A stretch of DNA of 63,651 nucleotides from Acidimicrobiales bacterium (GCA_030681555.1 JAUXRW010000038.1:1-63651); one strand, 5' to 3'; positions 6,466 to 60,563 are shown, counted from the first letter of the stretch. Numbers and translations are program-made. Notes: generated from the sequence alone by a model not told the origin.

Positions 6466-6493
6466 CGGATGCTCCCTTCGCATGCCGTTCAAG

Positions 6494-6533
6494 ATACCCC
6501 CCTGGGGTATACTTGTAAACCCCATAGGGGTAT
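6494..6533. promoter_or_regulatory. Two tandem CsoR-type operators
   Basis: ATACCCC-CCT-GGGGTAT (6494-6510) and AAACCCC-ATA-GGGGTAT (6517-6533) just upstream of copB. Confidence 0.85.
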
Positions 6534-7813: not shown

Positions 7814-7834
7814 GGTGCTCCAAAAACTTTCTTA

Positions 7835-7863
7835 TTGATCAATCGGTAAACTAGTTCTACGCT
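7835..7863 (+). promoter_or_regulatory. Sigma-A-like promoter of the P450 operon with overlapping operator-like motifs
   Basis: TTGATC-17 nt-TACGCT within an AT-rich intergenic patch. Confidence 0.55.
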
Positions 7864-7920: not shown

Positions 7921-9228
7921 ATGACCACGACCACCAACCCGGTCAGCGAGTTCTTCAACCAGGACGTCATCGAAGACCCGTACCCCACGTACGAAAAGCT
8001 TCGATCCCAGGGCCCGGTCGCGTATGTCGACAGCCTCGACGCCTACATGGTGACCGGCCACGCCGAATGCATGACGGCCATGCGGAACCACGACGTGTTC
8101 CGGCAGTGGGACGGCTCCGAGCTGAACGCCATCAACCCTGACGTCGCCGAGGAGCTGGCCGAGATGTTCGGCGTGGACGCCGAGACCGCGCAGAAGGGCG
8201 GGCTGCGGGGCATCGCCTCGACCTCTGGCTTTGGCCTCATGGTCGACACGCTCGTCACGGCCAACCCGCCCGAGCACACGCGCTACCGCCACGTGACGAA
8301 CCAGGCCTGGTCGGCCAAGCGCACGGCGGTGGACGCCGAGCCGCGCATCCGGGAGGTGACCAACTTCCTCGTCGACGACTTCGCCGGCTCCGGAAAGGTG
8401 GAGTTCATGTCGAGCTTCGCTGCGCCGATGCCGTCGCTCGTGATCTCGGAAATCCTCGGCCTGCCCAAGGAGGACTGGACGAAGTTCAAGGAATGGTCCG
8501 ATGTTGGTCTCACGTTGCTCGGCGGAAACCTCGAGCGGGACCAGGTCCGCGCCGCGGTGACGGCAATGATGAACCTCACTGCCTACCTGGGAGCGGCCAT
8601 CGAGACACGCCGCAGCGAGTCCACCGACGACGCGCTCTCGGCGCTCCTGCGGGCCAAGGACCGCGACGGCGTCGGCCTCGAGCAGCAGGAGCTCCTGAGC
8701 ATCGCGCTGCACCTACTCGGCGCCGGCCACGAGACCACGATCAACGCCATGGGCAACATGATGTGGCTCATCCTGCGCGACGCCGAGGTTCGCGACGCGA
8801 TCCTGGCCGACCGCTCCCTGATCCCCAACGCCGTCAACGAGTCGCTACGCCTCGAGGCGCCGGTGCAGTTCCTCTTCCGCCAGACGAGCGAGGCGAGCAC
8901 GCTCGGCGGAACCGAGGTGCCGGGCGATGCCAAGGTGTGCCTCATCTTCGCGGCGGCCAACCGGGATCCTGCCGTGTTCCCGGATCCGGACCGCTTCGAT
9001 CTGCACCGGGAGAACTCGCGGCACCACGTCTCGTTCGGCTTCGGCATCCACCGCTGCATCGGTGAGCCGCTGTCGATCAAGGAGTTGGAGCTGGCCGTCG
9101 ACACGCTGCTCACGCGCCTGCCCGATCTGCAATTGCACCCCGACCAGTCGTTCGACCACAACCCCCACCCCTTCCTGCGCCGCTTCAAGGAGCTTCAGCT
9201 CACCTACGGCTCGTCTGTCGCCAGCTGA
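7921..9228 (+). CDS. Cytochrome P450
   Basis: AGHETT I-helix, ESLR (ExxR), FGFGIHRCIG heme motif; alternative GTG start at 7909. Confidence 0.96.
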   Translation: MTTTTNPVSEFFNQDVIEDPYPTYEKLRSQGPVAYVDSLDAYMVTGHAECMTAMRNHDVFRQWDGSELNAINPDVAEELAEMFGVDAETAQKGGLRGIASTSGFGLMVDTLVTANPPEHTRYRHVTNQAWSAKRTAVDAEPRIREVTNFLVDDFAGSGKVEFMSSFAAPMPSLVISEILGLPKEDWTKFKEWSDVGLTLLGGNLERDQVRAAVTAMMNLTAYLGAAIETRRSESTDDALSALLRAKDRDGVGLEQQELLSIALHLLGAGHETTINAMGNMMWLILRDAEVRDAILADRSLIPNAVNESLRLEAPVQFLFRQTSEASTLGGTEVPGDAKVCLIFAAANRDPAVFPDPDRFDLHRENSRHHVSFGFGIHRCIGEPLSIKELELAVDTLLTRLPDLQLHPDQSFDHNPHPFLRRFKELQLTYGSSVAS

Positions 9229-9237
9229 ACCCACCCA

Positions 9238-9465
9238 ATGACGGCGCTGCGCATCGAGATCGATCACGGCCTATGCGGAGGAGCGTCGGAGTGCGTGCGG
9301 GCGCAGCCCGAGCTCTTCGAGCTGAACCAGGAGGGGCGGGCGTCGCTGCGCCGAGTGCCCGGCGACCACGAGCGGGACGCCTGCCTGGCCGCTGCGTGGG
9401 CCTGCCCGACGTCCGCCATCCGCGTGTTCGAAGGTGACGAGGAGCTGGATCCCTACCCAGGATGA
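9238..9465 (+). CDS. Ferredoxin ([3Fe-4S]/[4Fe-4S] type), likely P450 partner
   Basis: CGGASEC...ACP motif, 75 aa, directly after the P450. Confidence 0.88.
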   Translation: MTALRIEIDHGLCGGASECVRAQPELFELNQEGRASLRRVPGDHERDACLAAAWACPTSAIRVFEGDEELDPYPG

Positions 9466-9908
9466 AGACCATGCCCGACACACGATTCATCGACCCGTCC
9501 ATCGCCACCTGGCCGGGGGAAGCTGCCCGCCTGCTCGGAGGCCGCTGCGACGGTTGCGCCGTGGTGACCTTCCCGGCCCCGAAGGGCTGCCCGGCATGCG
9601 GCGGCGGCGACGTGTCGCAGGTGGAGCTCGATCCGGTGGGAACCGTCTGGACCTACACCGTGCAGGGCTTCCCCCCACCGGCGCCGCCCTACCTCGGACC
9701 GGCATCTCCGGATACCTTCCGGCCCTTCGCGGTCGCCTACGTGGATCTCGGCTCGGTGCTGGTGGAAGGGCCTGTGCTCGGAGATCCCTCATCCGTTCGC
9801 ATCGACGATCCGGTCCGGGTCGTGTTTCCCGTTCTCGGGCAGGACCAGGACGGCAACGATGTCGTGGCCTTCGCGTTCGAGCCCATCGAGGAGGGCAGCC
9901 ATGCCTGA
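9462..9908 (+). CDS. DUF35 Zn-ribbon/OB-fold protein
   Basis: RCDGC..CPAC Zn ribbon, GTVWTYTV, PFAVAYVDL; overlaps the thiolase gene. Confidence 0.9.
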   Translation: MKTMPDTRFIDPSIATWPGEAARLLGGRCDGCAVVTFPAPKGCPACGGGDVSQVELDPVGTVWTYTVQGFPPPAPPYLGPASPDTFRPFAVAYVDLGSVLVEGPVLGDPSSVRIDDPVRVVFPVLGQDQDGNDVVAFAFEPIEEGSHA

Positions 9909-11049
9909 GTCCGAGGTCGTCATCGTCGGGGTCGGCATCCACCCCTTCGGTCGCCACGAAGGCCTGTCGGGCCTCGAGCAGGGGGCCATCGCGGCCCAGG
10001 CGGCGCTCGCCGACGCCGGGTGTGCGTGGCCTGACATCGACGTCGCCTACGGAGGCAGCGTGGCATCTGGCGCTGCCGATTCGCTCGTCAGCATCCTCGG
10101 CCTGACCGGGGTGCCCTTCGTCAACGTCGCGAACGGGTGCGCGACCGGCGGCAGTTCCCTGATGGCGGCCTTCGACGCCCTTCGATCGCGCCAGTGCGAT
10201 CTCGGGCTCGTGGTCGGCTTCGACAAGCACCCCCGTGGCGCGTTCAATGCAGATCCGGCCCTGCTCGGCCTACCCGACTGGTACGCCGAGGCGGGGATGA
10301 TGCTCACCACCCAGTTCTTCGGTATGAAGTTGCGACGCTACATGCACGACTTCGGCATCACCGAGGACGCGCTGGCCCGTGTGGCGGCCAAGGCCTTCCG
10401 CAACGGGGAGCGCAACCCGAACGCCTGGCGTCGCAAGCCGATCACCGAGGAGGAGATTCGCAACTCCTTCGTCATCGCTGACCCCCTCACCCAGTACATG
10501 TTCTGCGCCCCCGCCGAGGGAGCGGTGGCGTTGGTCGTGGCCCGGGCCGAGTCAGCGCCGGCAGGGAGCCGACCGGTCACCCTCCGCTCCGCTGTGCTTG
10601 CGTCGCGCCGTCACGGGACCTTCGAGGTCTTCAGCCCCAGCCTGTCGAGCACCCGCGCGCCGAGCCCCTCGGTGTTCGCGGCGCAGGGGGCGCTCGAGAT
10701 GGCCGGGGTGTCGGTCTCCGAGATCGATGTGGCGCAGATCCAGGACACCGAGAGCGGAGCGGAGATCATGCACATGGCCGAGACGGGACTGTGCGCGGAC
10801 GGCGACCAGGAAGCGCTGATCATGAGCGGGGCCACCGAGGTCGATGGCAGCCTTCCCGTGAACACCGACGGCGGTTGCCTGGCCAACGGAGAGCCCATCG
10901 GCGCGTCGGGTTTGCGCCAGATCCACGAGAACGTGGTGCAGCTGCGCGGCGACGCAGGTGAGCGCCAGGTCCCTGGCGAGCCGCGGGTCGCGCTCTCGCA
11001 CGTCTACGGCGCTCCAGGGATCAGCGCCTGCACCGTCATCACTGCCTGA
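9901..11049 (+). CDS. SCP2-type thiolase-family protein
   Basis: IVGVGIHPFGR, NVANGCATG, QDTE, NTDGGCLANGEPIGASG. Confidence 0.9.
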   Translation: MPESEVVIVGVGIHPFGRHEGLSGLEQGAIAAQAALADAGCAWPDIDVAYGGSVASGAADSLVSILGLTGVPFVNVANGCATGGSSLMAAFDALRSRQCDLGLVVGFDKHPRGAFNADPALLGLPDWYAEAGMMLTTQFFGMKLRRYMHDFGITEDALARVAAKAFRNGERNPNAWRRKPITEEEIRNSFVIADPLTQYMFCAPAEGAVALVVARAESAPAGSRPVTLRSAVLASRRHGTFEVFSPSLSSTRAPSPSVFAAQGALEMAGVSVSEIDVAQIQDTESGAEIMHMAETGLCADGDQEALIMSGATEVDGSLPVNTDGGCLANGEPIGASGLRQIHENVVQLRGDAGERQVPGEPRVALSHVYGAPGISACTVITA

Positions 11050-11089
11050 TCGCACCTGCGGTCAGCGCCACGAGAGGGAAGGACATGCC

Positions 11090-11827
11090 ATGGAGTTGTC
11101 GGGGAAGGTGGCCGTGGACCCCGGGGCGGGGTCGGGCATCGGCCGGGCGTCGGCCTCGCTGCTGGCCAGCAAGGGCGTGAAGGTCGTGGTGGCGGACATC
11201 GACGAGGACGGGGGCCGCGAGACGGTCGCCACCATCGTGGGCCAAGGCGGGGACGCCCACTTCGTCTTCGTCGACGTGACCGACCCTGGCTCGGTCACAT
11301 CGCTCTACGCCGCGGCCGTCGAGCACTACGGTGGCCTCGACATCAGCCACAACAACGCCGGCATCGTGGCCGGCAACCCCCCCTGGCCGGAGACCCCCAT
11401 GGAGCGGCTCATGCAGCTCGCCATGGTGAACCTGGGCGGCGTCATGCCCTGCACCCGTGCGGCGGTGGACCACCTCCGCAACCGAGGTGGCGGAGCCATC
11501 GTCAACACTGCGTCCATCGCGGCCCAGTTCCCCATGGCCGACGACGCGGCCTACTCGGCCACCAAGGCTGGCGTGGCCATGTTCACGCAGGCGTGTGCCG
11601 CGCTGAAGGACCGCGACGGGATCCGGGTGAACGCGGTGCTCCCGGGTCTCGTCGACACGCCGATCATCAACAAGACTGGCGACGGCACCAAGCCGGCCGA
11701 CTGGCTGGTCGCTGCGCTGGAGGTGGTGCCCCCCCTCAAGCCCGAGGAGGTCGCCGAAGCGGTGCTCGAGCTCATCGTTGACGACAACGCCTACTCCCAG
11801 CTGAAGCCAGTGATGGCCGGGCTGTGA
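11090..11827 (+). CDS. Short-chain dehydrogenase/reductase
   Basis: GAGSGIG, NNAG, YSATK, NAVLPG. Confidence 0.9.
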   Translation: MELSGKVAVDPGAGSGIGRASASLLASKGVKVVVADIDEDGGRETVATIVGQGGDAHFVFVDVTDPGSVTSLYAAAVEHYGGLDISHNNAGIVAGNPPWPETPMERLMQLAMVNLGGVMPCTRAAVDHLRNRGGGAIVNTASIAAQFPMADDAAYSATKAGVAMFTQACAALKDRDGIRVNAVLPGLVDTPIINKTGDGTKPADWLVAALEVVPPLKPEEVAEAVLELIVDDNAYSQLKPVMAGL

Positions 11828-11860
11828 CCGACCACCTGATCACCGAAAGGACGCCCGCAC

Positions 11861-12847
11861 ATGGCTGACGACGCCACGCTCGACCCCGCGGTCCACCGCG
11901 GCCTCTACCGGACGATGAGCCTGATCAAGCAGTGCGACGACCGGTTCCGCACCATGCTCTCCAGCGGCCAGATCTTCATCGTGTACTACTCGCCTCGCGG
12001 CCAGGAGGCCATCTCGGCCGGTGTCGGAGCCCACCTCCGCCCGGACGACTCGGTGGTCACCACCTACCGCGGCCTGCACGACCACCTGGCCAAGGGCGTC
12101 GACCTGCGGGGGCTCTGGGCCGAGTTCCTCGGCAAGTCCACCGGTCTGTGCAAGGGCAAGGGCGGCCCCATGCACATCACCTCTCCCTCCGACGGGCTGA
12201 TGGTGACCACCGGGATCGTGGGCGCCGGCCTCCCCATCGCCAACGGTTTCGCCATGGCTGCCCAGCTCGACGGGTCGGACGCCGTCACGGTGGTGAACTT
12301 CGGCGACGGGGCGTCGAACATCGGCGCCTTCCATGAGGCGGTCAACCTGGCCGCGATCTGGAAGCTGCCGGTGGTGTTCGTCTGCCACAACAACCTCTAC
12401 GCGGAGCACACGGCCTTCGAGGCGGGCACCGCAGGCGGGTCGGTCGCCGGACGCGCCAGCGCCTACGGGATCGCCGGTCAGCGGGTGGACGGCAACGACC
12501 CTGTGGAGGTGTACCTGGCTGCTCAGGAGGCGGTCAGGCGCGCCCGTGCCGGCGAGGGGCCCACCATCGTCGAGTGCATGACCTACCGTTTCCACGGCCA
12601 CGTGGTCGGGGACGCGATGGAGTACCAGCCCCCGGACGAACGGGCCGCCGCCATGGCGGCTGACCCGGTCGATCGCTACCGAGCTCGGCTCGTCACCGAC
12701 GCGACCCTCACCGAGGCCGAGCTGGCCGACATCGACTCCACCATTGCGGCCGAGATCGACGACGCCGTGGAGTTCGCGCAGTCCAGCCCTGCCCCGGACC
12801 TGTCCGAGCTGTATACCGATGTCTACGCCGAGGGGGTCGCGCCGTGA
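11861..12847 (+). CDS. TPP-dependent dehydrogenase E1 alpha subunit (AcoA/PdhA-like)
   Basis: GQEA, GKGGPMH, GDGA...HNN TPP motif, TYRFHGH. Confidence 0.92.
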   Translation: MADDATLDPAVHRGLYRTMSLIKQCDDRFRTMLSSGQIFIVYYSPRGQEAISAGVGAHLRPDDSVVTTYRGLHDHLAKGVDLRGLWAEFLGKSTGLCKGKGGPMHITSPSDGLMVTTGIVGAGLPIANGFAMAAQLDGSDAVTVVNFGDGASNIGAFHEAVNLAAIWKLPVVFVCHNNLYAEHTAFEAGTAGGSVAGRASAYGIAGQRVDGNDPVEVYLAAQEAVRRARAGEGPTIVECMTYRFHGHVVGDAMEYQPPDERAAAMAADPVDRYRARLVTDATLTEAELADIDSTIAAEIDDAVEFAQSSPAPDLSELYTDVYAEGVAP

Positions 12848-13839
12848 CCGCCACGGAGACCACCCGAGTCATGATGGTGCGTGAGGCCATCAACGACGCG
12901 CTCGATCGAGCGCTCGCCTCCGACGACAAGGTGGTGCTGCTCGGGGAGGACATCGCAGACCCTGGTGGTGGGGTGTACGGCATCACCAAGGGCCTGTCCA
13001 CGAAGTACGGTCTCGACCGTGTGCGGCCCACGCCGATCTCGGAGCAGGCCATCGTGGGCGCGGCAATCGGCGCTGCCGTAGCCGGGTATCGGCCGGTGGC
13101 GGAGATCATGATCATGGACTTCTTCGGGGTCTGCCTCGATCAGGTGGCGAACCACGCCGCCAAGCTCCGATACATGTCCGGCGGCCAGACCACCGTCCCG
13201 CTCACCATCCGCTGCTCAGCCGGGGCTGCGATGTCCCTGGGCGCCCAGCACTCGCAGATGCTCGAGGCCTGGCTGGTCCACACTCCCGGCCTGAAGGTGT
13301 GCATCCCGAGCAACTCGGCTGACGCCAAGGGGATGCTCACCACCTGCATCTTCGACGACGATCCTTGCGTCTTCGTCGAGCAGGTCATGGGCTACTTCAA
13401 TGGCTCGGAGTGCCCCGAGGGGGAGCACCGAGTGCCGATCGGTGAGGCCGCCATCCGGCGTGAAGGCGACGCCATCACCCTCGTGAGCTACGGCCGCCAG
13501 ATGAACGACGTTCTGACGGCGGCCGATCAGCTCGCAGCTGACGGGATCGACGCGGAGGTCATCGACCTGCGCTGGCTGCAGCCGCTCGACACTGCGACGA
13601 TCCTGGCCTCTGTTCGTAAGACAGGTCGGCTGGCCATCCTGCACGAGGCCGTCAAGCGGGGAGGTGTCGGGGCGGAGATCGCAGCGGTCGTCGCAGAGGA
13701 GGCCTTCGACTCGCTCCGGGCACCCGTGGTGCGCATCGCCGGCAAGAACACCCCCGTCCCCTACGCACGGGAGCTCGAGGCGGCGTTCCTGCCCACGGTG
13801 GGCGATCTCGTGGCTGCAGCCAGGGCCCTGGTGAGCTGA
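12844..13839 (+). CDS. TPP-dependent dehydrogenase E1 beta subunit
   Basis: LGEDI, TPISEQAIVG, EIM..DF, QHSQ, EVIDLR. Confidence 0.93.
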   Translation: MTATETTRVMMVREAINDALDRALASDDKVVLLGEDIADPGGGVYGITKGLSTKYGLDRVRPTPISEQAIVGAAIGAAVAGYRPVAEIMIMDFFGVCLDQVANHAAKLRYMSGGQTTVPLTIRCSAGAAMSLGAQHSQMLEAWLVHTPGLKVCIPSNSADAKGMLTTCIFDDDPCVFVEQVMGYFNGSECPEGEHRVPIGEAAIRREGDAITLVSYGRQMNDVLTAADQLAADGIDAEVIDLRWLQPLDTATILASVRKTGRLAILHEAVKRGGVGAEIAAVVAEEAFDSLRAPVVRIAGKNTPVPYARELEAAFLPTVGDLVAAARALVS

Positions 13840-13841
13840 GG

Positions 13842-14072
13842 GTGAAGATCAACGTGCCCCGCCTGGGGTTCTCGATGACCGAAGGCACCCTCGTCGAGTG
13901 GGTGGTCCCCGACGGCGGGCAAGCCGTCGCTGGGGAGGTGTTGTACATCCTCGAGTCCGAGAAGGTCGAGAACGAGGTCGCGGCGCCCCTCACGGGCACG
14001 CTGCGCCACATCGCGGCGCCTGGCGACACGCTCGACGTCGGCGCGCCACTGGGCGAGATCGAGCCGGCCTGA
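13842..14072 (+). CDS. Stand-alone lipoyl-carrier domain
   Basis: 76 aa; PRLGFSMTEG...LESEKVENEV with the lipoyl Lys; stop codon directly after the domain. Confidence 0.88.
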   Translation: MKINVPRLGFSMTEGTLVEWVVPDGGQAVAGEVLYILESEKVENEVAAPLTGTLRHIAAPGDTLDVGAPLGEIEPA

Positions 14073-14150: not shown

Positions 14151-15011
14151 CTACGCGTCGGGACCCTCCGTGGGCGGACGCTGCCTGCGCTGCCGGACCA
14201 GACCAGAGGGATCGATCGGCAGATCGAAGCGCTCGCGGTTGTGGGAGTGGGCAAGGGAGTGCAGCCCGAACGCGCCCCGCATCGCGGTCCAGAAGCCCTG
14301 CGCCTCGAGGGCCTGGTTCACCGACTCCTTGGCCAGCTTGAGCGCAAACGAGGGCTTGGTCGCGATGCGCTCGGCCAGCACCAGGGCCTCGGTGTCCAGA
14401 TCGTCCCGGGACGGGACGACCCGGTTGACCATGCCGAGCTGCTGCGCCTCGGCGGCCGTGATCGCGTCGCCGGTGAAGAGGAGCTCCTTCGCCTTGCGAG
14501 CACCGAGCTCCCACGGGTGGGCGAAGTACTCGACTCCGTTGACGCCGAGGGCGACGGTGATATCGCTGAAGGTGGCTTCGGCGCTGGCGATGACCAGGTC
14601 GCAGACCCAGATCAACATCAGTGCGCCGGCGATGGAACGGCCGTGCACGGCGGCGATCGTGGGTTTCGGCAGGTTGCGCCAGCGCCAACACATGTTGAGA
14701 TAGACCTCCTCCTCCCAGGCCATGAATCCCTCCGCTCCTGGCCGGTCGAACGATGCCGACGTGCCCACGACGGCGTGGGTCTCGCCCATGGTTTGATCGG
14801 CGAGATCATGCCCGGAGCAGAAGTCGGGCCCGCGCCCGGCGAGGATGACGACCTTCACGGCGTCGTCCTGGGCCGCTCGGTCGAAGGCGGTGTTGAGCTC
14901 GTAGGTCATGCGCCGGCTCTGCGCGTTCCTGCGCTCCGGACGGTCGAGCACGATGCGTGCCACCCCCGGCGCGGGCTCTTCGTAGGCGATGGTTGTGAAC
15001 GTGGTGGACAC
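14151..15011 (-). CDS. Enoyl-CoA hydratase/isomerase (EchA13-like)
   Basis: LDRPERRNAQ, FCSGHDL, PKPTIAAVHG, AGALML..VCDL. Confidence 0.92.
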   Translation of the reverse strand: MSTTFTTIAYEEPAPGVARIVLDRPERRNAQSRRMTYELNTAFDRAAQDDAVKVVILAGRGPDFCSGHDLADQTMGETHAVVGTSASFDRPGAEGFMAWEEEVYLNMCWRWRNLPKPTIAAVHGRSIAGALMLIWVCDLVIASAEATFSDITVALGVNGVEYFAHPWELGARKAKELLFTGDAITAAEAQQLGMVNRVVPSRDDLDTEALVLAERIATKPSFALKLAKESVNQALEAQGFWTAMRGAFGLHSLAHSHNRERFDLPIDPSGLVRQRRQRPPTEGPDA

Positions 15012-15036: not shown

Positions 15037-15066
15037 TTGGACAGTTTCTAACTGATTGACTAGAAT
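15037..15066 (+). promoter_or_regulatory. Putative promoter with operator-like motif in the spacer
   Basis: TTGGAC-18 nt-TAGAAT; spacer contains ACTGATTGAC. Confidence 0.5.
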
Positions 15067-15135: not shown

Positions 15136-16359
15136 ATGCAGATCGAGGTGTTCCGGGAGGAGGCCGTCCGGTGGCTGAAGACCACCGCGGTACCGCGCGC
15201 CGACATCGCGGGGGACGCTCCGCTCGTGTGGGGGGCCGGCAGCGATTCGGTCGCCGTGTTCGAGAACACCACCGAGGAGGAGGAGCGACTCCAGGCCGAG
15301 CGGATCTCCGACTGGCAGAGCACCAAGTTCGACGCCGGGTACGGCGCCATCGCCTGGCCCACCGAACTCGGCGGCCGAGGGCTGACCCCCGCCCACGAGG
15401 CCGCCTTCCGGGCGGAGGAGGCGAAGTTCGAGACTCCGGGCTTCAACGAGCTGTTCGGCGTGACGATCGGCCTCGTGGCTCCCACCATCGGCATCTTCGG
15501 CACTCCGGAGCAGCAGCAGCGGTTCATCCCGTCGCTCCTGCGCACCGACCTCCTCGCCTGCCAGCTCTTCAGCGAGCCCGGTGCGGGCAGCGACCTGGCG
15601 TCGTTGTCGTGCCGGGCCGAGCGTGACGGCGACGGGTGGCGCATCACCGGGCAGAAGGTATGGACCTCCGGAGCCAGGGTGGCCCACTACGGCGAGGCCA
15701 TCTGTCGCACCGACCCCAGTGCCCCCAAGCACCATGGCATGACCGCCTTCCTCGTGCCCCTCGACGCGCCTGGCGTCGAGGTGCGGCCCATCCGCCAGAT
15801 GACCGGTGGGTCCACCTTCAACGAGGTGTTCCTCGAGGACGTGCTCGTGCCCGACGACCTCCGACTGGGAGCCCCCGGCGACGGGTGGAAGGTCGCGCTC
15901 ACCACGTTGGGCTTCGAGCGAGGGCTCTCCAGCGCGGGTGGTGGCGGGCTCGGCGGGTCCTTCCGACGGCTCCACGCCCTCTCCCGGCAGCTCGACCGCA
16001 CCACCGAGCCCGTGACCCGCCAGCAGCTGGCGAAGCTCTACATCGGCGAGCGGCTCCTCTCGATGCTCGGCCAGCGGGCCCGTGCCGCCATGGAGGCGGG
16101 AGGGCCACCGGGGCCGGAGGGCTCGGTGGGCAAGCTGCTCTGGACGCAGAACATGAGCCGCACGAGCGACCTGGCCTCTACCCTCCTCGGCCCCCGCCTC
16201 GGGGCGGACACCGGCGAGTGGGGCACCTTCGCCTGGGCGGAGCACCTGCTGGGTGCCCCCGGGTACCGGATCGCCGGCGGGAGTGACGAGATCCAGCGCA
16301 ACATCATCGGCGAGCGGGTTCTCGGCCTGCCCCGGGAGCCGAGGCCCGCCGCTCCATGA
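15136..16359 (+). CDS. Acyl-CoA dehydrogenase (FadE-type)
   Basis: CQLFSEPGAGSDLA, GQKVWTS, FNEVF, GGSDEIQRNIIGERVLGLPREP. Confidence 0.94.
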   Translation: MQIEVFREEAVRWLKTTAVPRADIAGDAPLVWGAGSDSVAVFENTTEEEERLQAERISDWQSTKFDAGYGAIAWPTELGGRGLTPAHEAAFRAEEAKFETPGFNELFGVTIGLVAPTIGIFGTPEQQQRFIPSLLRTDLLACQLFSEPGAGSDLASLSCRAERDGDGWRITGQKVWTSGARVAHYGEAICRTDPSAPKHHGMTAFLVPLDAPGVEVRPIRQMTGGSTFNEVFLEDVLVPDDLRLGAPGDGWKVALTTLGFERGLSSAGGGGLGGSFRRLHALSRQLDRTTEPVTRQQLAKLYIGERLLSMLGQRARAAMEAGGPPGPEGSVGKLLWTQNMSRTSDLASTLLGPRLGADTGEWGTFAWAEHLLGAPGYRIAGGSDEIQRNIIGERVLGLPREPRPAAP

Positions 16360-16378: not shown

Positions 16379-17917
16379 ATGTCGATCGTGACCCGCCGAG
16401 GTCGAGCCGACGACGAGCGCGCCGTCGCACTGGCCGACGCCACGCAGGAGCTCACCTGGGACGCCCTCGACCAGGTCCTCAACCGCATCGGCAACGCCCT
16501 GCTGACGGAGCTGAGCCCAGGCGCTGATCGCGTGGCCATCTTCGCGGAGAACGCCCTCGAGACGGTGGCCGCCCACCTCGGTGCCATCGGCGTAGGCGTG
16601 TCGTCCGTCCCCGTCAGCTTCCACCTCACCGAGGACGAGCTGGCCTACATCCTCAAGGACTCCGGGAGCCGGCTGCTGCTGGTCGGCCCCGAGACGGCGC
16701 CCCGCGGCGTGGCCGCAGCGCAGCAGGCTGGTATCACCGTCGTGGGCTGGCGGTGTGAGGGCCAGCCGGGGGTCGAGGACTGGGACGCGTGGCTCGCTCG
16801 CGCCGACGCCTCCGAGCCACCCACGGACGTGCCGCCGCGGCCCTTCCTCCACTACACCTCGGGCACCACGGGTTTGCCGAAGGGCACCGACACACCTCCG
16901 GCGATGTTCGCGGGGGGCGAGACGTTGGAGGAGCACTTCGACAACGTCGCGGCTACGAACCTCTTCACAGGCACCAACCTGATCGTCAGCCCCGTCTACC
17001 ACACGGGCCCCCTCTCCACGCTGCGAGCGCTCGCTGCCGGCACGCGACTGGTGGTGCTGGGCCGGTTCGACCCCGAGGGCGTCCTGCGGGCGATCGATCG
17101 CTACAAGGTGACCTCGACGGTGATGGTGCCCACCCACTTCGCCCGGCTCCTGAGCCTGCCCGAGGACGTGCGGAAGCGTTACGACCTCTCCAGCCTGGCC
17201 GTAGTGGCGCACACGGGGGCCTCGTGCCCCGTAGAGGTCAAGCGCCGGATGATCGACTGGTTCGGGCCCGTGTTGATCGAGGCCTATGGCGCCACCGAGT
17301 CAGGCACGACCAACATGATCACCTCTCCCGAGTGGCTCGAGCACCCGGGGTCGGTCGGTCGCACGCTCCCGCCCTTCGAGGTGGTGGTGGTGAGCGAGGA
17401 GGGGGAGGAGCTCCCGACCGGCGAGGTCGGGGTCCTCTACTTCCGCGACACGACCGGACGGGGCATCCGCTACCACAACGACCCGGAGAAGACGGCCAAG
17501 GCCCACCGCCGACCGGGCGAGTTCACCCTGGGCGACGTGGGCTACGTGGACCCCGACGGCTACGTGTACATCACCGACCGCACGTCCGACATGGTCATCT
17601 CGGGAGGGGTCAACATCTACCCGGCCGAGGCGGAGGCGGTGTTACTCGAGCATCCGGCCGTGGACGACGTGGCCTGCATCGGCGTACCCCACATCGAGAT
17701 GGGCGAGCAGCTGCAGGCCCTCGTCGTGCTGCGGGCCGGCGAGCCGGCCCCCACCGAAGCCGAGCTCATCGACTTCGCCCGAGGTCGGATCGCCCACTAC
17801 AAGTGCCCCCGCTCCGTCGACTTCGTCGAGGACCTGGGCCGCAACGCCATGGGCAAGCTGAACAAGCGCGCCCTGCGCGCCCCCTACTGGCCCAGCGACC
17901 GGACGATCGGCGGCTGA
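16379..17917 (+). CDS. Acyl-CoA synthetase (AMP-binding)
   Basis: YTSGTTGLPKG, YGATE, GDVGYVD, SGGVNIYP, GKL. Confidence 0.94.
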   Translation: MSIVTRRGRADDERAVALADATQELTWDALDQVLNRIGNALLTELSPGADRVAIFAENALETVAAHLGAIGVGVSSVPVSFHLTEDELAYILKDSGSRLLLVGPETAPRGVAAAQQAGITVVGWRCEGQPGVEDWDAWLARADASEPPTDVPPRPFLHYTSGTTGLPKGTDTPPAMFAGGETLEEHFDNVAATNLFTGTNLIVSPVYHTGPLSTLRALAAGTRLVVLGRFDPEGVLRAIDRYKVTSTVMVPTHFARLLSLPEDVRKRYDLSSLAVVAHTGASCPVEVKRRMIDWFGPVLIEAYGATESGTTNMITSPEWLEHPGSVGRTLPPFEVVVVSEEGEELPTGEVGVLYFRDTTGRGIRYHNDPEKTAKAHRRPGEFTLGDVGYVDPDGYVYITDRTSDMVISGGVNIYPAEAEAVLLEHPAVDDVACIGVPHIEMGEQLQALVVLRAGEPAPTEAELIDFARGRIAHYKCPRSVDFVEDLGRNAMGKLNKRALRAPYWPSDRTIGG

Positions 17918-38651: not shown

Positions 38652-39332
38652 TCACGGTGCCGACGCCGCAGCGGCACGCTGGTCGACCAGCGTGCCGGCG
38701 AAGAGGCGTTCGACCACGAGCACCGCAGCAGTGTGCTCCTCAAGGCCCTCATCGAGGGTGGCGAAGTGGGCCAGCCCCGTCGTGATGGACAGGAGCATGT
38801 TGGCGACGGCCCCTGGCGACACGTCCGGCTGCAGCTCGCCGGCGTCGGCGGCGTCCTGGGCCAGCTGGTGGAAGAAGCCAAGACCGCGGCCCCACAGCTC
38901 GGCAGGGACCCGATCGGCGAGGTCCTTGTGCCTGAGCAGCTCGACCGGGTACACCGTGCTGAACCGAGCCAGGGAGGCGTCTTCTCGATGCAGCTCGATC
39001 GCGATGTCGAGCAGCCCGCGAACCCGGTCGACGAAGCTCGACGATTCCTCGAGCACACGGTCGAACTCGCTGAAGATCCGGGTCACCACCTGCTCGGTGA
39101 CCGCCCCGAACAGCTCGTCCTTGGAGTCGAAGTAGTGGTAGATCGCGCCGGCCGTCAACCCGGCCCGCTCGCCGATGTCGCGGTTGGTGGTGCTGGCGTA
39201 TCCGAGCTCGGCGAAGCAGCTGCGGGCGGCTCCGAGGATGCGCTCCCGGGTCTCGGCGCTCTCGGCGGCGGGCGGCCTCCCGAGAGGTCGGGCGGTCTTC
39301 CGTCGGCTTGGTCGGCTGCTCGTTGGGCCCAT
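38652..39332 (-). CDS. TetR/AcrR-family regulator
   Basis: TRERILGAARSCFAELGY...GLTAGAIYHYFDSK; likely start MGPTSS at 39332. Confidence 0.92.
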   Translation of the reverse strand: MGPTSSRPSRRKTARPLGRPPAAESAETRERILGAARSCFAELGYASTTNRDIGERAGLTAGAIYHYFDSKDELFGAVTEQVVTRIFSEFDRVLEESSSFVDRVRGLLDIAIELHREDASLARFSTVYPVELLRHKDLADRVPAELWGRGLGFFHQLAQDAADAGELQPDVSPGAVANMLLSITTGLAHFATLDEGLEEHTAAVLVVERLFAGTLVDQRAAAASAP

Positions 39333-39361
39333 GGAGACGGCTCCTGTACGTGAATCGCGGG

Positions 39362-39408
39362 TTGACCGGGCGCTCGCTGCAATCCTATGATATCTAATCA
39401 ACAGATTA
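39362..39408 (+). promoter_or_regulatory. Promoter and palindromic operator in the tetR/Rieske divergent region
   Basis: TTGACC-18 nt-TATGAT followed by the perfect palindrome TAATC-AACA-GATTA (39395-39408). Confidence 0.65.
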
Positions 39409-39470
39409 AATAGCCCATTGCCGGGCGCCAGAAACAATAGGCGTGAGCGAAGGTCCCAGGAGGAACGGTA

Positions 39471-40871
39471 GTGGACATGAATTCAGCTGGGCCTGCTGGT
39501 GCGGTGCGATCCCCGGGGGCGACGGTGCAGCAACTCCTCGACCGGGACAGCCATGAGGTCCCGGTGACACTCCGCGTCCACGCAGCAGCGGATCTCGGCG
39601 ATGCCGACCTGTCCGTGGACCGGTATTTGTCCCGGGAGTTCCACGACCTCGAGGTCGAGCGGCTGTGGGGCCGGGCTTGGCAGCTCGCTTGCCGCGAGGA
39701 GGACATCCCGGAGGTCGGCGACACGACGATCTACGACATCGCCGACCGGTCGCTTCTCATCGTGCGAGAGGCCCCGGAGCGCATCCGGGCGTACCACAAC
39801 GCGTGCCTCCACCGTGGCCGCCAACTGCGGTCCGAGCCCGGGTGGAACGCCGAGCTCCGGTGTCCCTTCCACGGTTTCACGTGGCGCCTCGATGGGAGCC
39901 TCAAGGAGATCCCGTGCGACTGGGACTTCCCCCACGTCGACCCGGCAGCGTTCGCGCTCCCGGAGGCGCTGGTGGCGACCTGGGGCGGCTGGGTGTTCAT
40001 CAACATGGACCCCGCCGCCGCCCCGTTCGAGGACTTCATGGGAACCTTCGCCGAGCACTTCCCGTGGCGCCAGGAGGACCTCACCAAGGGGGTTCACGTG
40101 GCCAAGGTGCTCCGCGCCAATTGGAAGGTTGCGCTCGAGGCCTTCATCGAGTCGTACCACGTGATCGCCACGCACCCCCAGCTCCTGGTGAGCCTCGGCG
40201 ACGCCAACACCCAGTACGACGTCTTCGACGAGCAGCCGCGGTGGAACCGGATGATCACCGCGATGGGCACACCGTCGCCTCACCTGCCCTACGAGGTTTC
40301 CGAGCAGGACATCATGGACGACCTCATGGAGCAGTTCATGGGGCCCGGCGTCACGTTTCCACTAGCTGAAGGCAAGACAGCGCGCGAGATGATGGGCGAC
40401 CTGATCCGGGGGCAGGTCGGTGGCGTGACCGGTGAGCCCTGTGAGGTCTCCGACTCGGAGGCCTTCGACGCCATCGAGTACTACCTGTTCCCGAACTTCG
40501 TCCCATGGGGGGGCTACTCGCGGATCAACTACCGGTTCCGGCCCTATGGCAACGATCCCGACATGTGCATCATGGACGTGATGCTGCTCGCCCCCTTCAA
40601 CAAGGCGGAAGGCCGGCCACCGGCGCCGCCCGTGCACTGGCTCGGACCCGACGACGAGTGGACCGACGCGCCGGAGCTGGGCCTCCTGGCCAAAGTGTTC
40701 GTGCAGGACACCTTCAACATCCCTCGCGTCCAGCGGGGCCTGAAGGCGACCGTGAAGCCCGGTGTCACGCTGGCGCACTACCAGGAGAGCCGGATCCGCC
40801 ACTATCACCAGGAGCTGGATCGCTGGCTCCAGGTGGAACTCGCCCCGAGCACGAACGGCCACTCAGGGTGA
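39471..40871 (+). CDS. Rieske non-heme iron oxygenase alpha subunit
   Basis: CLHRG...CPFHG Rieske cluster, NWK..EAFIESYH...H, distal Asp in VQD. Confidence 0.94.
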   Translation: MDMNSAGPAGAVRSPGATVQQLLDRDSHEVPVTLRVHAAADLGDADLSVDRYLSREFHDLEVERLWGRAWQLACREEDIPEVGDTTIYDIADRSLLIVREAPERIRAYHNACLHRGRQLRSEPGWNAELRCPFHGFTWRLDGSLKEIPCDWDFPHVDPAAFALPEALVATWGGWVFINMDPAAAPFEDFMGTFAEHFPWRQEDLTKGVHVAKVLRANWKVALEAFIESYHVIATHPQLLVSLGDANTQYDVFDEQPRWNRMITAMGTPSPHLPYEVSEQDIMDDLMEQFMGPGVTFPLAEGKTAREMMGDLIRGQVGGVTGEPCEVSDSEAFDAIEYYLFPNFVPWGGYSRINYRFRPYGNDPDMCIMDVMLLAPFNKAEGRPPAPPVHWLGPDDEWTDAPELGLLAKVFVQDTFNIPRVQRGLKATVKPGVTLAHYQESRIRHYHQELDRWLQVELAPSTNGHSG

Positions 40872-41116: not shown

Positions 41117-41503
41117 ATGAGTCACGAGTTCATGTCAGACGACTGGTTCAACGCCGTCGAGGCGCTCGCCGCAGAGGCACCCGAACCGCCCGCCGCCCTC
41201 AAGGACCTCACCGTCAACGTCGTCGTCAGCGGGGGGCCCGAGGGGGAGAAGGAGGCGCATCTGGCTGCAGGCCTCTTCAACCGTGGGCTCTCCGATGCCG
41301 CGTCCACGAAGCTGACAGTTCCCTTCGACACCGCGAAGGCCATGTTGATCGAGGGCAACCCCCAGGCCGCCATGCAGGCGTTCATGTCCGGACAGATCAA
41401 GGTGGAGGGAGACATGACCAAGCTCATGGCCATGCAGACCGCCGGTGCGCCGACGCCGGAGCAGGCCGCCTTCCAGGAAAAGCTCAAGGCGCTCACGGCG
41501 TAA
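41117..41503 (+). CDS. SCP2 sterol/lipid-binding domain protein
   Basis: 128 aa; FMSDDW start and AFMSGQIKVEGDM C-terminal SCP2 motif; AAGGAGG RBS. Confidence 0.85.
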   Translation: MSHEFMSDDWFNAVEALAAEAPEPPAALKDLTVNVVVSGGPEGEKEAHLAAGLFNRGLSDAASTKLTVPFDTAKAMLIEGNPQAAMQAFMSGQIKVEGDMTKLMAMQTAGAPTPEQAAFQEKLKALTA

Positions 41504-57457: not shown

Positions 57458-57509
57458 GAGCGAGGTCCTCTCGTTGCGGGTGCCGGGATCATCGCTTACT
57501 GTCGGGGCA

Positions 57510-60542: not shown

Positions 60543-60563
60543 TCAACGTCGCTCGTACCTGCT

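What the first reader, a model, noticed from the sequence alone, without database searches (positions are those of the whole stretch)
7921..14072. P450-ferredoxin-DUF35-noncanonical thiolase-SDR-E1 operon suggests an unusual C-C cleavage route
The thiolase keeps the N-terminal Cys (NGCATG) but has QDTE where SCP2 thiolases have HDCF, and GEP where thiolases have GHP. Both catalytic His positions are therefore replaced. Established: DUF35 plus thiolase-like pairs (Ltp2/ChsH2) act as retro-aldolases. Inference: hydroxylation, then oxidation, then aldol or TPP-dependent cleavage of a branched or cyclic hydrophobic substrate.
Basis: partly seen in the sequence, partly recalled or inferred. Interest (0 to 1): 0.58.

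Follow-up and report, generated by a model that had tools for sequence, protein, structure and literature searches.

The report
Reworked thiolase with orphan E1-lipoyl operon
The operon is real, and its "thiolase" belongs to a large, cross-phylum, apparently unstudied branch of DUF35-partnered thiolase-fold enzymes that keeps the reactive cysteine but has invariant replacements for the other catalytic residues, often next to a thiamine-dependent E1 pair, a lipoyl carrier and an oxygenase.

Summary
It is an eight-gene, tightly packed plus-strand operon: P450, ferredoxin, DUF35, thiolase-like, SDR, E1alpha, E1beta, and a free-standing 76-aa lipoyl domain (13842-14072) that the title omitted.

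The thiolase-like protein keeps the nucleophile loop (NGCATG). It has QDTE where SCP2 thiolases have HDCF, and GEP where they have GHP.

These replacements are invariant in about 120 homologues (64-98% identical) and in 160 fetched loci from Actinomycetota, Gamma- and Alphaproteobacteria. The clade is separate from canonical thiolases and from the Tyr-type aldolases (Ltp2, Sal, IpfD). It fails the aldolase signature: no Tyr, cysteine retained.

DUF35 is its only near-universal neighbour. Recurrent partners are E1alpha/beta with E2 or a free lipoyl domain, an alpha-only Rieske oxygenase (once fused to the acyl-CoA synthetase), SDR, ACS, ACAD and ECH. In this window the Rieske, its TetR and a lipoyl-less E2 core lie 25-28 kb downstream.

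Best reading (about 0.4): an oxygenase-primed, CoA-dependent catabolic module for hindered carboxylic acids. The pair cleaves C-C bonds through a Cys-acyl intermediate, and E1/lipoyl performs an oxidative TPP cleavage. Retro-aldol chemistry is a close rival.

No paper on this clade was found. Earlier first-reader notes flagged the same motifs in other genomes.

The parts
7828..7839 (+). AT-rich 12-mer TTTCTTATTGAT in the promoter region upstream of the P450. A near-identical copy lies at 15045-15056. Candidate shared promoter or operator element.
   Evidence: only these two matches in the window, against 0.04 expected. The pattern was derived from these same two sites, so the statistic is post hoc.
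7921..9228 (+). Cytochrome P450, CYP107-like. The ORF is open from GTG 7909; the likely start is ATG 7921.
   Evidence: Pfam p450 103 bits. Best solved relatives are PikC and EryF. Haem loop FGFGIHRCIG.
9238..9465 (+). Small single-cluster ferredoxin, the presumed redox partner of the P450.
   Evidence: Fer4_15 and Fer4_13. It starts 9 nt after the P450 stop.
9462..9908 (+). DUF35 protein (Zn ribbon plus OB fold), partner subunit of the thiolase-like enzyme.
   Evidence: OB_ChsH2_C and zf-ChsH2. Weak BbsA match. Four Cys at residues 29, 32, 43 and 46. A DUF35 gene lies directly upstream of the thiolase homologue in 71 of 80 genome loci.
9901..11049 (+). Thiolase-fold protein of the QDTE/GEP clade. 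Cys80 codon at 10138-10140, QDTE at 10741-10752, GEP at 10888-10896, invariant HVYG at residues 367-370.
11090..11827 (+). Short-chain dehydrogenase/reductase.
   Evidence: adh_short 161 bits. Start ATG 11090 lies behind GGAAGGA. An SDR at 33% identity or more is found in 23 of 46 long genome loci.
11861..12847 (+). TPP-dependent E1 alpha subunit, of the PDH/acetoin-dehydrogenase type.
   Evidence: E1_dh 263 bits. TIGR03182 scores 311 bits, below its cut-off. Nearest solved structure is human PDH E1alpha.
12844..13839 (+). E1 beta subunit.
   Evidence: Transket_pyr plus Transketolase_C. NF006667 scores 351 bits, above its cut-off.
13842..14072 (+). Free-standing 76-aa lipoyl domain (lipoyl carrier) with ESEKVE around the presumed lipoyl-lysine.
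   Evidence: Biotin_lipoyl 55.8 bits over positions 2-73 of 73. Sequence read. Free lipoyl-domain homologues (44-54% identical) are found in actinobacterial loci L014, L016, L037, L038 and L047.
14151..15011 (-). Enoyl-CoA hydratase (PRK08290 type), convergent with the operon.
   Evidence: ECH_1. NF006140 scores 381 bits, above its cut-off. Orthologues at 51-63% identity lie beside DUF35-thiolase in other loci.
15136..16359 (+). Acyl-CoA dehydrogenase.
   Evidence: Three ACAD domains. Orthologues at 50-62% identity occur in related loci.
16379..17917 (+). Acyl-CoA synthetase (AMP-binding).
   Evidence: Start ATG 16379 lies behind GGAGG. Orthologues at 48-60% identity occur in related loci.
38652..39437 (-). 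TetR regulator, homologous to the TetR that sits directly upstream of DUF35 in other actinobacterial loci.
   Evidence: 35-44% identical to the TetR in L013-L016, L019, L021, L047 and L066. Pfam TetR_N on the family representative.
39471..40871 (+). Alpha-only Rieske oxygenase. It is the only copy of this type found in this genome and the commonest oxygenase partner of the QDTE thiolase elsewhere.
   Evidence: Rieske plus Ring_hydroxyl_A. 41-52% identical to the Rieske gene beside the thiolase in 22 of 80 genome loci.
41117..41503 (+). Small SCP2-domain protein.
   Evidence: Weak SCP2 match, 23.6 bits.
41628..42407 (+). E2 acyltransferase catalytic domain with no lipoyl or subunit-binding domain. 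An IS transposase follows at 42570-43463.
   Evidence: 2-oxoacid_dh 214 bits, the only domain found.

Best explanation
The window carries one version of a widespread, uncharacterised catabolic module for carboxylic acids that ordinary beta-oxidation cannot handle. Candidate substrates are methyl-branched, isoprenoid-derived or alicyclic acids; none can be named from these data.

Shown:
- Eight co-oriented, overlapping genes: P450, Fdx, DUF35, thiolase-like, SDR, E1alpha, E1beta, free lipoyl domain.
- ECH, ACAD and ACS lie next door.
- A TetR / Rieske / SCP2 / lipoyl-less E2-core block lies 25-28 kb downstream. Homologues of the Rieske, TetR and E2 genes sit inside the same operon in other bacteria.

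Inferred mechanism:
1. The acid is activated by the ACS.
2. An oxygenase (the P450 here, the Rieske elsewhere) installs a hydroxyl group, and the SDR oxidises a hydroxyl to a ketone.
3. The DUF35-thiolase pair cuts a C-C bond next to the CoA thioester. It uses the retained Cys80 as acyl acceptor (a retro-Claisen, thiolase-like step) but with a new acid/base set. Gln281 takes the Asn/His oxyanion-hole position. Glu331 replaces the Cys-activating His. Thr283 and Glu284 replace the SCP2 acid/base Cys and Phe. Invariant Tyr369 lies at or next to the classical acid/base Cys position.
4. E1alpha/beta cleaves a 2-oxo acid or alpha-hydroxyketone intermediate oxidatively onto the lipoyl carrier. An E2 core then passes the acyl group to CoA.

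ACAD and ECH complete a beta-oxidation-type cycle in the actinobacterial versions.
For: - The fold and nearest relatives are true thiolases. BbsB scores 148 bits and SCP2-thiolase 136 bits, against 91 for the aldolase Ltp2. An AlphaFold model (pTM 0.86) matches SCP2-thiolase and BbsB at TM 0.80-0.83.
- The nucleophile loop N-G-C-A-T-G-G-S is invariant, as are Q281, D282, T283, E284 and E331. The site is under selection, not decayed.
- The window holds a full beta-oxidation enzyme set around the pair: ACS, ACAD, ECH and an SDR directly after the thiolase.
- Tyr-type aldolase plus DUF35 pairs co-occur with the QDTE pair in one operon, which implies a different job.
- The linkage to E1alpha/beta plus lipoyl/E2 appears in four different gene orders across three lineages. 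Halieaceae: E1a-E1b-E2-DUF35-Thl-Rieske-SDR-ACS. N. aromaticivorans pNL2: DUF35-Thl-ACAD-E1a-E1b-E2-VOC. An Actinomycetota MAG (L037): E1a-E1b-DUF35-Thl-Lip-ACS~Rieske. The fourth is this window.
- Tallies in long loci: DUF35 64/67, Rieske 21/67, E1 (alpha or beta) about 18/67.
- An ACS-Rieske fusion ORF of 981 aa in L037 ties the oxygenase to the CoA-activated substrate.
Against: - No member of the clade has been assayed.
- Both His residues and the acid/base Cys used for Claisen chemistry are gone. A carboxylate at the His348 position should disfavour a thioester enolate unless it is protonated.
- The characterised DUF35 partners noted here with replaced catalytic residues (Ltp2, Sal) are retro-aldolases, and IpfD carries the same sequence signature. 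They changed exactly the two positions changed here: Tyr294 and Tyr344 of Ltp2 correspond to Q281 and E331.
- The compact L037 operon has no SDR, ACAD or ECH to make a 3-oxoacyl-CoA.
- E1 or Rieske genes are found within 10 kb in only about a quarter to a third of loci. They are frequent partners, not obligatory ones.
- The operon has no E2 catalytic core or E3, and the substrate is unknown.
Confidence: 0.4

Rival explanations
1. The DUF35-thiolase pair is a retro-aldolase of a third catalytic type. It would cleave a beta-hydroxyacyl-CoA, for instance one made by the Rieske or P450 oxygenase or by the ECH, into acetyl- or propionyl-CoA plus a ketone or alpha-hydroxyketone. The Cys80/Glu331 pair and Tyr369/Glu284 would act as base and acid rather than as nucleophile. 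The E1/lipoyl system would then cleave the ketone product in an acetoin-type reaction.
For: - Ltp2 and Sal are characterised aldolases; IpfD (genetically required for ibuprofen side-chain removal) carries the same sequence signature. They diverged at the same two positions (PMC12329534).
- Both Claisen His residues are lost.
- The L037 operon has ACS~Rieske, DUF35, thiolase, E1 and Lip but no dehydrogenase. This fits oxygenase, then aldol cleavage, then acyloin cleavage.
- The gene content parallels IpfABDEF: ACS, Rieske, thiolase-fold protein, DUF35.
Against: - There is no Tyr at the aldolase base position.
- The nucleophile Cys and its whole loop are invariant here, whereas every known aldolase has lost them.
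- The clade is separate from the Tyr-type aldolases and co-occurs with them in one operon.
- An SDR follows the thiolase in many loci, including this window.
Confidence: 0.3
2. The thiolase-like enzyme is mainly an acyl-transfer station for the E1/lipoyl system. Cys80 would take the acyl group from the S-acyl-dihydrolipoyl carrier and either pass it to CoA or use it in a condensation. In the actinobacterial operons, which lack an E2 core, it would stand in for that core.
For: - Actinobacterial versions (this window, L014, L016, L037, L047) have E1alpha/beta (or its visible end) plus a free lipoyl domain, with no E2 catalytic domain within 10 kb.
- In L037 the DUF35-thiolase pair lies between E1beta and the lipoyl gene.
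- The Cys is retained while the enolate-handling residues are lost.
Against: - Proteobacterial versions have a complete E2 and still keep the pair.
- About two thirds of loci have no E1 within 10 kb.
- This genome has an E2 core beside the Rieske gene and at least one full-length E2 elsewhere.
- No thiolase-fold enzyme is known to use a lipoyl arm.
Confidence: 0.1
3. The protein is a catalytically dead thiolase relic that serves only as a scaffold or binding subunit.
For: Three of the four canonical catalytic residues are replaced.
Against: - The replacement residues are themselves invariant across phyla, at 58-98% overall identity.
- The clade has a long, well-supported stem and short internal branches.
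- Dead sites normally drift.
Confidence: 0.05

Closest known systems
SCP2-type thiolases (zebrafish SCP2-thiolase type-1, PDB 6HSJ/6HSP; Leishmania and Trypanosoma SCP2 thiolases, 3ZBG/4BI9)
   Same: Same fold and length. The model matches at TM 0.81-0.83, 27-28% identity, 136 bits. The nucleophile loop with its Cys is conserved.
   Different: HDCF becomes QDTE and GHP becomes GEP. Three of the four catalytic residues are replaced, and invariably so. A DUF35 partner gene is always present. No NCBIfam thiolase or lipid-transfer model reaches its cut-off: the best is 215 bits against a cut-off of 436.
BbsAB benzoylsuccinyl-CoA thiolase (PDB 7PXP): thiolase BbsB with Zn-finger/OB subunit BbsA
   Same: Best sequence match among solved structures (E = 2e-42). 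A two-gene DUF35 plus thiolase arrangement. Catabolic and CoA-dependent. The nucleophile Cys is kept. BbsB also lacks the Cys of HDCF (it has HDAF).
   Different: BbsB keeps both His residues (HDAF, GHP). Identity is only about 29%. The context differs: anaerobic toluene beta-oxidation against an oxygenase plus E1/lipoyl module.
Ltp2-ChsH2(DUF35) (PDB 6OK1) and Sal-Shy(DUF35) (PDB 9MYR) steroid side-chain retro-aldolases
   Same: Thiolase fold with a DUF35 partner. Both have altered exactly the two His positions that are altered here: Tyr294 and Tyr344 of Ltp2 correspond to Q281 and E331.
   Different: The aldolases have a catalytic Tyr (YDHF or YDCY) and have lost the nucleophile Cys. This clade has Gln and Glu and keeps the Cys. 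The clades are separate. Scores are lower (91 bits to 6OK1).
IpfABDEF ibuprofen/arylacetate side-chain removal (pIBU218, NZ_CP059320; PMC9195938)
   Same: Same logic in gene content: acyl-CoA synthetase, Rieske oxygenase acting after CoA activation, thiolase-fold enzyme, DUF35 protein. The ACS~Rieske fusion in L037 supports the same order of steps.
   Different: IpfD is 28% identical, has YDAF and no nucleophile Cys (aldolase type), and its gene precedes the DUF35 gene. The Ipf Rieske has a beta subunit. Ipf has no E1/lipoyl component.
Acetoin and pyruvate dehydrogenase complexes (AcoABCL; PDH E1alpha/beta-E2-E3)
   Same: Heterotetramer-type E1alpha/beta with TPP domains. Nearest to mitochondrial-type PDH E1. 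A lipoyl acceptor is encoded directly after E1beta. The proteobacterial versions have a normal lipoyl-PSBD-core E2.
   Different: Here E2 is split into a free lipoyl domain and a distant core without a lipoyl domain. No E3 gene is nearby. The complex is embedded in an oxygenase and acyl-CoA catabolic operon. E1alpha scores below the PDH equivalog cut-off. Lipoyl-less E2 cores are known to me from corynebacterial OdhA; this is from memory and was not checked here.

Membership tests
Thiolase superfamily, SCP2/DUF35-associated branch | Thiolase fold (Thiolase_N plus Thiolase_C_1 domains) | tested here: met
   Pfam hits. AlphaFold model with pTM 0.86 matches 6HSP and 7PXP at TM 0.80-0.83.
Thiolase superfamily, SCP2/DUF35-associated branch | Nucleophilic Cys in the N-x-x-C-[AS]-[ST]-G loop | tested here: met
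   NGCATG, with Cys80 aligned to the nucleophile of BbsB, SCP2-thiolase and a classical thiolase. Invariant in alignment A1.
Canonical (SCP2-type) thiolase | His and acid/base Cys of the HDCF loop | tested here: not met
   QDTE: His to Gln, Cys to Thr, Phe to Glu.
Canonical (SCP2-type) thiolase | Cys-activating / oxyanion-hole His of G-H-P | tested here: not met
   GEP in all 121 proteins checked.
Canonical (SCP2-type) thiolase | Score above the curated cut-off of a named thiolase or lipid-transfer NCBIfam model | tested here: not met
   Best is NF006102 at 215 bits against a cut-off of 436. None of the 19 hits passes.
DUF35-partnered thiolase-fold complexes (BbsAB, Ltp2-ChsH2, Sal-Shy, PhlABC, archaeal thiolase/HMGS) | Adjacent, translationally coupled DUF35 (Zn ribbon plus OB) gene | tested here: met
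   8-nt overlap in the window. DUF35 lies directly upstream in 71 of 80 genome loci, and in 64 of 67 long loci. Physical complex formation was not tested.
Ltp2/Sal/IpfD-type retro-aldolases | Catalytic Tyr at the first position of the x-D-x-F loop | tested here: not met
   Gln281 aligns with Tyr294 of TcLtp2 and with the Tyr of IpfD and the Ltp-like proteins.
Ltp2/Sal/IpfD-type retro-aldolases | Loss of the thiolase nucleophile Cys | tested here: not met
   The Cys is retained and invariant here, and absent in IpfD and the Ltp-like sequences. Sal has Gly at this position (PMC12329534).
Ltp2/Sal/IpfD-type retro-aldolases | Membership of the aldolase clade in a tree | tested here: not met
   The QDTE clade (support 100/99) is separate from the Y-D-x-F clade (100/99). 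The branching order among the three clades is unresolved (25 sequences only).
Ipf-like side-chain removal module | ACS plus Rieske oxygenase plus thiolase-fold protein plus DUF35 in one unit | tested here: inconclusive
   All four are in one operon in many related loci. In this window the Rieske lies 28 kb from the pair and a P450 heads the operon.
2-oxoacid / acetoin dehydrogenase complex | E1alpha and E1beta with TPP and transketolase-like domains | tested here: met
2-oxoacid / acetoin dehydrogenase complex | E2 with lipoyl domain, subunit-binding domain and catalytic core on one chain | tested here: not met
   Free lipoyl domain at 13842-14072 and core-only protein at 41628-42407. No E3_binding domain was found in either.
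2-oxoacid / acetoin dehydrogenase complex | Dedicated E3 (dihydrolipoamide dehydrogenase) gene | not tested
   None was seen among the window genes scanned. The rest of the genome was not searched for E3.
2-oxoacid / acetoin dehydrogenase complex | Substrate class (2-oxo acid versus acyloin) | not testable with these tools
   No specific model or residue signature was available.

The most novel reading that the evidence does not exclude
The QDTE/GEP proteins are a third, undescribed catalytic class of DUF35-dependent thiolase-fold enzymes, alongside His/His/Cys thiolases and Tyr-type aldolases. Together with an orphan E1alpha/beta-lipoyl system and a Rieske or P450 oxygenase, they form a widespread, unrecognised pathway. 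This pathway would combine oxygenase priming, Cys-dependent C-C cleavage and TPP/lipoyl-dependent oxidative cleavage to degrade hindered natural acids, such as isoprenoid-, apocarotenoid- or alicyclic-type acids, in marine, freshwater and soil bacteria. The thiolase might possibly take acyl groups directly from the lipoyl arm.
Probability: 0.3. Interest if true: 0.8.

Novelty: new variant of a known kind. Interest (0 to 1): 0.6.

Why it matters
Thiolase-fold enzymes with DUF35 partners have already yielded thiolases, aldolases and Friedel-Crafts acyltransferases.

This clade is large. It has a fixed, different set of active-site residues, so it probably catalyses a C-C bond reaction by a mechanism not yet described.

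Its repeated coupling to an orphan E1/lipoyl system and to oxygenases points to an uncharted route for mineralising recalcitrant carboxylic acids, which matters for carbon turnover and bioremediation. Cultivable, genetically tractable hosts carry the module, including Novosphingobium aromaticivorans DSM 12444 (plasmid pNL2) and Rhodococcus opacus, so the question can be tested directly.

Tried and rejected
- **Tool closure.** I could not inspect the contexts of the closest homologues (80-98% identical, P0002-P0005). The metagenome scan returned only relatives at 58-68% identity.
- **Literature.** Seven completed searches (DUF35/thiolase/aldolase; DUF35/Rieske/thiolase; ipfD/ipfE; BbsA; pNL2; ditF/ditO; carotenoid cleavage plus thiolase plus Rieske) found no paper on this clade or module. 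Two further searches failed on term syntax, so phytol-derived isoprenoid ketone catabolism was not searched.
- **Oestrogen aed cluster.** Considered and rejected. AedK is Ltp2-like and there is no E1.
- **Abietane dit cluster.** No usable evidence was found.
- **ESM Atlas.** It gave only "thiolase family" labels.
- **Substrate hints.** NCBIfam hits for ACS, ACAD, SDR and Rieske (cyclohexanecarboxylate- or pimeloyl-type, GbcA-like) all fall far below their cut-offs. I did not use them to name a substrate.
- **The P450.** CYP107-like and generic, and not conserved with the pair: present in 9 of 67 long loci at about 30-35% identity. It is probably a lineage-specific addition.
- **Full E2 in the operon.** Looked for and not found; only a lipoyl domain is present.
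- **Tyr369.** Whether it sits exactly at the classical acid/base Cys position is ambiguous by one residue between two alignments.
- **Tree.** It has 25 rows and lacks BbsB, PhlC and Sal sequences, which I could not fetch as sequences. The branching order of the three clades is unresolved.

Full report
**Anatomy**

The window has about 70% G+C. Third-position G+C picks out the real frames. From 7921 to 14072 there are eight plus-strand genes:

| Gene | Coordinates | Evidence |
|---|---|---|
| P450 | 7921-9228 | Pfam p450; haem loop FGFGIHRCIG |
| Ferredoxin | 9238-9465 | 4Fe-4S single-cluster type |
| DUF35 | 9462-9908 | Zn ribbon with four Cys plus OB fold |
| Thiolase-fold protein | 9901-11049 | Thiolase_N, Thiolase_C_1 |
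| SDR | 11090-11827 | adh_short |
| E1alpha | 11861-12847 | E1_dh |
| E1beta | 12844-13839 | Transket_pyr, Transketolase_C |
| Free lipoyl domain (76 aa) | 13842-14072 | Biotin_lipoyl 55.8 bits, full length |

These assignments rest.

The gene junctions are 9, -4, -8, 40, 33, -4 and 2 nt. No terminator-like hairpin lies on the plus strand inside the block. Co-transcription is therefore likely, but it has not been shown.

Downstream lie a convergent enoyl-CoA hydratase (14151-15011), an acyl-CoA dehydrogenase (15136-16359) and an acyl-CoA synthetase (16379-17917).

**The motif claim**

The translation reads NVANGCATGG, QIQDTESG and ANGEPIGASG. HMMER alignments to solved structures place these on NVQSACSAG / HDAF / GHP of benzoylsuccinyl-CoA thiolase BbsB, and on NVNNNCSTG / HDCF / GHP of zebrafish SCP2-thiolase.

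A profile-profile alignment against a classical thiolase of the same genome gives these equivalences:
- Cys80 = Cys89.
- Gln281 = Asn316 (NEAF).
- Glu331 = His348.
- Invariant Tyr369 lies at or one residue from the classical acid/base Cys. The two alignments differ by one position.

The nucleophile is kept. The HDCF His and Cys and the GHP His are all replaced.

**A conserved clade, not a decayed gene**

A search of 5.8 billion proteins hit the 8000-candidate ceiling. The top 120 hits are all 64-98% identical. Among 121 sequences, QDTE occurs 120 times and QDTD once, and GEP occurs 121 times. In a 20-sequence alignment spanning Actinomycetota and Proteobacteria, N78-G-C-A-T-G-G-S85, Q279, Q281-D-T-E284, E288, H291, N329-G-E-P332, H367 and Y369 are invariant.

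The carriers include Acidimicrobiia, Rhodococcus, Prauserella, Saccharopolyspora, Halieaceae, Microbulbifer, Rhodobiaceae and Sphingomonadales.

On plasmids there is a clean gap in identity. Nineteen records fall at 52-66% identity, including N. aromaticivorans pNL2, Rhodococcus opacus megaplasmids and several Novosphingobium. Nothing else exceeds 36%.

No NCBIfam thiolase or lipid-transfer model reaches its cut-off; the best is 215 bits against 436.

Other thiolase-fold paralogues found in this genome have different signatures: canonical (NACATG/HDCF/GHP), Ser-type (NASATG/HDAF/GHP) or aldolase-type (YDSF, YDCF).

A maximum-likelihood tree of 25 sequences resolves three well-supported groups inside the SCP2-like branch: H-D-x-F proteins, Y-D-x-F proteins including IpfD, and the QDTE clade (100/99, long stem). 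Their branching order is unresolved.

An AlphaFold model (pLDDT 78, pTM 0.86) matches SCP2-thiolase and BbsB at TM 0.80-0.83.

Within the window's own genus the gene is patchy: 5 of 24 sampled relatives carry it. One of those, G004, is an unpublished genome, so this count rests partly on it.

**Comparison with the known aldolases**

- From the literature: TcLtp2 uses Tyr294 (YDHF) and Tyr344. CtSal uses Tyr302 and Cys304 (YDCY) and has Gly at the thiolase nucleophile position (PMC12329534).
- I fetched IpfD from pIBU218 (accession taken from PMC9195938) and Ltp-like genes from Rhodococcus and metagenome loci. All have Y-D-x-F and no nucleophile Cys, and they carry a Tyr where this protein has Glu331.
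- An alignment of the Rhodococcus Ltp-like protein to 6OK1 confirms that Tyr294 and Tyr344 fall on the columns of Gln281 and Glu331.

The QDTE clade has therefore altered the same two positions as the aldolases, but to Gln and Glu, and it has kept the Cys. It fails the aldolase signature.

In several actinobacterial loci, and on the R. opacus plasmid, a Tyr-type aldolase with its own DUF35 gene lies immediately upstream of the DUF35-QDTE pair. This argues that the two types do different jobs.

**Genomic context**

I called and clustered the genes of 80 genome loci and scanned representatives of each cluster. DUF35 lies directly upstream in 71 of 80 loci. Several recurrent arrangements appear:

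| Lineage | Arrangement |
|---|---|
| Halieaceae / Microbulbifer | Mo-oxidoreductase, ABM, enone reductase, SnoaL, RPE65-type cleavage oxygenase, E1alpha, E1beta, full E2, DUF35, thiolase, alpha-only Rieske, SDR, ACS, SDRs |
| N. aromaticivorans pNL2 | DUF35, thiolase, ACAD, E1alpha, E1beta, E2, VOC, with a Rieske gene 9 kb upstream |
| Actinomycetota, type B | (E1beta, lipoyl domain, SDR,) ACAD, ACS, ECH, P450, ECH, TetR, DUF35, thiolase, EamA |
| Actinomycetota MAG L037 | E1alpha, E1beta, DUF35, thiolase, lipoyl domain, then one 981-aa ORF fusing ACS to the Rieske oxygenase |

The type-B ACAD, ACS and ECH are 50-63% identical to those in the window, so they are likely orthologues.

Tallies in loci with long flanks:

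| Partner | Genome loci, at least 19 kb | Metagenome loci, at least 15 kb |
|---|---|---|
| DUF35 | 43/46 | 21/21 |
| Rieske | 16/46 | 5/21 |
| E1 | 10/46 (E1beta) | 8/21 (E1alpha) |
| SDR | 23/46 | 7/21 |
| ACS | 12/46 | 8/21 |
| P450 | 3/46 | 6/21 |

**The rest of the module in this window**

The only Rieske gene of this type found in this genome lies at 39471-40871. It is 41-52% identical to the Rieske genes that flank the thiolase elsewhere.

Its divergent TetR (38652-39437) is 35-44% identical to the TetR that precedes DUF35 in type-B loci.

Downstream of the Rieske gene are a small SCP2 protein and, at 41628-42407, an E2 acyltransferase core with no lipoyl or subunit-binding domain. An IS transposase follows.

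Here, then, E2 is split into a free lipoyl carrier inside the operon and a bare core about 27.5 kb away. In the actinobacterial relatives I found the free lipoyl domain but no core within 10 kb. The proteobacterial versions have an ordinary E2.

The promoter regions of the P450 operon and of the ACAD/ACS unit share the 12-mer TTTCTWAYTGAT, which occurs nowhere else in the window. The pattern was defined post hoc.

**How it most likely works**

Shown: the gene set, its conservation, the motif pattern, the fold and the clade structure. Everything below is inference.

The most economical reading of the window is that each enzyme does its usual class of reaction:
- ACS activates the acid.
- ACAD, ECH and SDR build a 3-oxoacyl-CoA.
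- The DUF35-thiolase pair cleaves it through an acyl-Cys80 intermediate.
- The P450/ferredoxin (or the Rieske oxygenase), an SDR and E1alpha/beta-lipoyl(-E2) remove or open a part of the molecule that blocks beta-oxidation. This would go through a 2-oxo acid (alpha-oxidation logic) or an alpha-hydroxyketone (acetoin-type cleavage).

Arguments for covalent catalysis:
- The nucleophile loop is retained intact.
- Sequence similarity to true thiolases is higher than to aldolases.
- An SDR frequently lies next to the thiolase gene.
- The clade coexists with Tyr-type aldolases in one operon.

Arguments against:
- Both His residues are lost.
- The L037 operon has no dehydrogenase.

That last point fits a different sequence of steps: the Rieske oxygenase hydroxylates the acyl-CoA, a retro-aldol cleavage releases an alpha-hydroxyketone, and E1 cleaves that ketone. 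I put thiolytic cleavage at about 0.4, retro-aldol at about 0.3, a lipoyl-to-Cys acyl relay at about 0.1 and a dead scaffold at about 0.05. The remainder is something not considered here.

The substrate cannot be named. Hints pointing to isoprenoid, apocarotenoid or alicyclic acids are weak. They are the RPE65 neighbour, the enone reductase, epimerase-like VOC genes, and sub-threshold cyclohexanecarboxylate- or pimeloyl-type hits.

**Novelty and prior notes**

Seven completed literature searches found nothing on this clade or module.

The scan's own index shows that first readers flagged the same QDTE/GEP motifs and the same Rieske/E1/thiolase-DUF35 contexts in other genomes. One follow-up described a gene set built from a Rieske gene and an orphan E1 pair. 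None of these notes resolved the function.

I rate this a new variant of a known kind: a third active-site solution in the DUF35-partnered thiolase fold, embedded in an undescribed oxygenase / TPP-lipoyl / CoA module.

**Limits**

- My gene calls in the fetched loci are heuristic.
- Related loci are not phylogenetically independent, so the tallies describe the sample and are not tests.
- No multimer model or docking could be run.

Noticed in passing
window 13842-14072 and 41628-42407: E2 is split. A free-standing 76-aa lipoyl domain follows E1beta. A 259-aa E2 catalytic core with no lipoyl or subunit-binding domain lies about 27.5 kb away, beside the Rieske and SCP2 genes and next to an IS element. 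Free lipoyl domains recur in actinobacterial relatives.
   Followed up: partly
L037:11754-14699 (Actinomycetota MAG, CAVSRT010000006.1): A single 981-aa ORF fuses an acyl-CoA synthetase (AMP-binding plus AMP-binding_C) to an alpha-only Rieske oxygenase. This is either a Rosetta-stone link between the two steps or an assembly or frameshift artefact.
   Followed up: partly
window 55496-57772 (-): A 758-aa ORF fuses E1alpha and E1beta domains on one chain. It is divergent from an SDR, a Zn-ADH, an ACAD and a TetR (57523-61205), which may form a second, paralogous TPP module.
   Followed up: no
window 7828-7839 and 15045-15056: A shared 12-mer, TTTCTWAYTGAT, sits in the two AT-rich promoter regions (upstream of the P450 and of the ACAD). 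It is a candidate operator for one of the TetR regulators. The pattern was defined post hoc.
   Followed up: partly
window 4340-6525 (-): Two overlapping ORFs (5437-6525 and 4340-5602) carry the N-terminal and C-terminal halves of a P-type ATPase. This looks like a frameshifted copy next to the intact heavy-metal ATPase at 370-2646.
   Followed up: no
window 17931-19233: About 1.3 kb between the ACS and the next called gene has long ORFs in several frames. None has a Pfam hit or a clear third-position G+C coding signal.
   Followed up: partly
own genome C1:20509-21645 and C45:25801-26973: Two thiolase-fold paralogues have Ser at the nucleophile position (NASATG) but keep HDAF and GHP. This is another non-canonical variant.
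   Followed up: no
L006-L039 and other gammaproteobacterial loci (e.g. L023:6936-8360): An RPE65/carotenoid-cleavage-type oxygenase, a SnoaL protein, an ABM monooxygenase, an enone reductase and a formate-dehydrogenase-like Mo enzyme are conserved just upstream of the E1-E2-DUF35-thiolase-Rieske block in Halieaceae and Microbulbifer.
   Followed up: partly
window 6728-7813 (-): A 361-aa protein, divergent from the P450, has no Pfam or NCBIfam hit and no homologue in any of the 80 related genome loci.
   Followed up: partly
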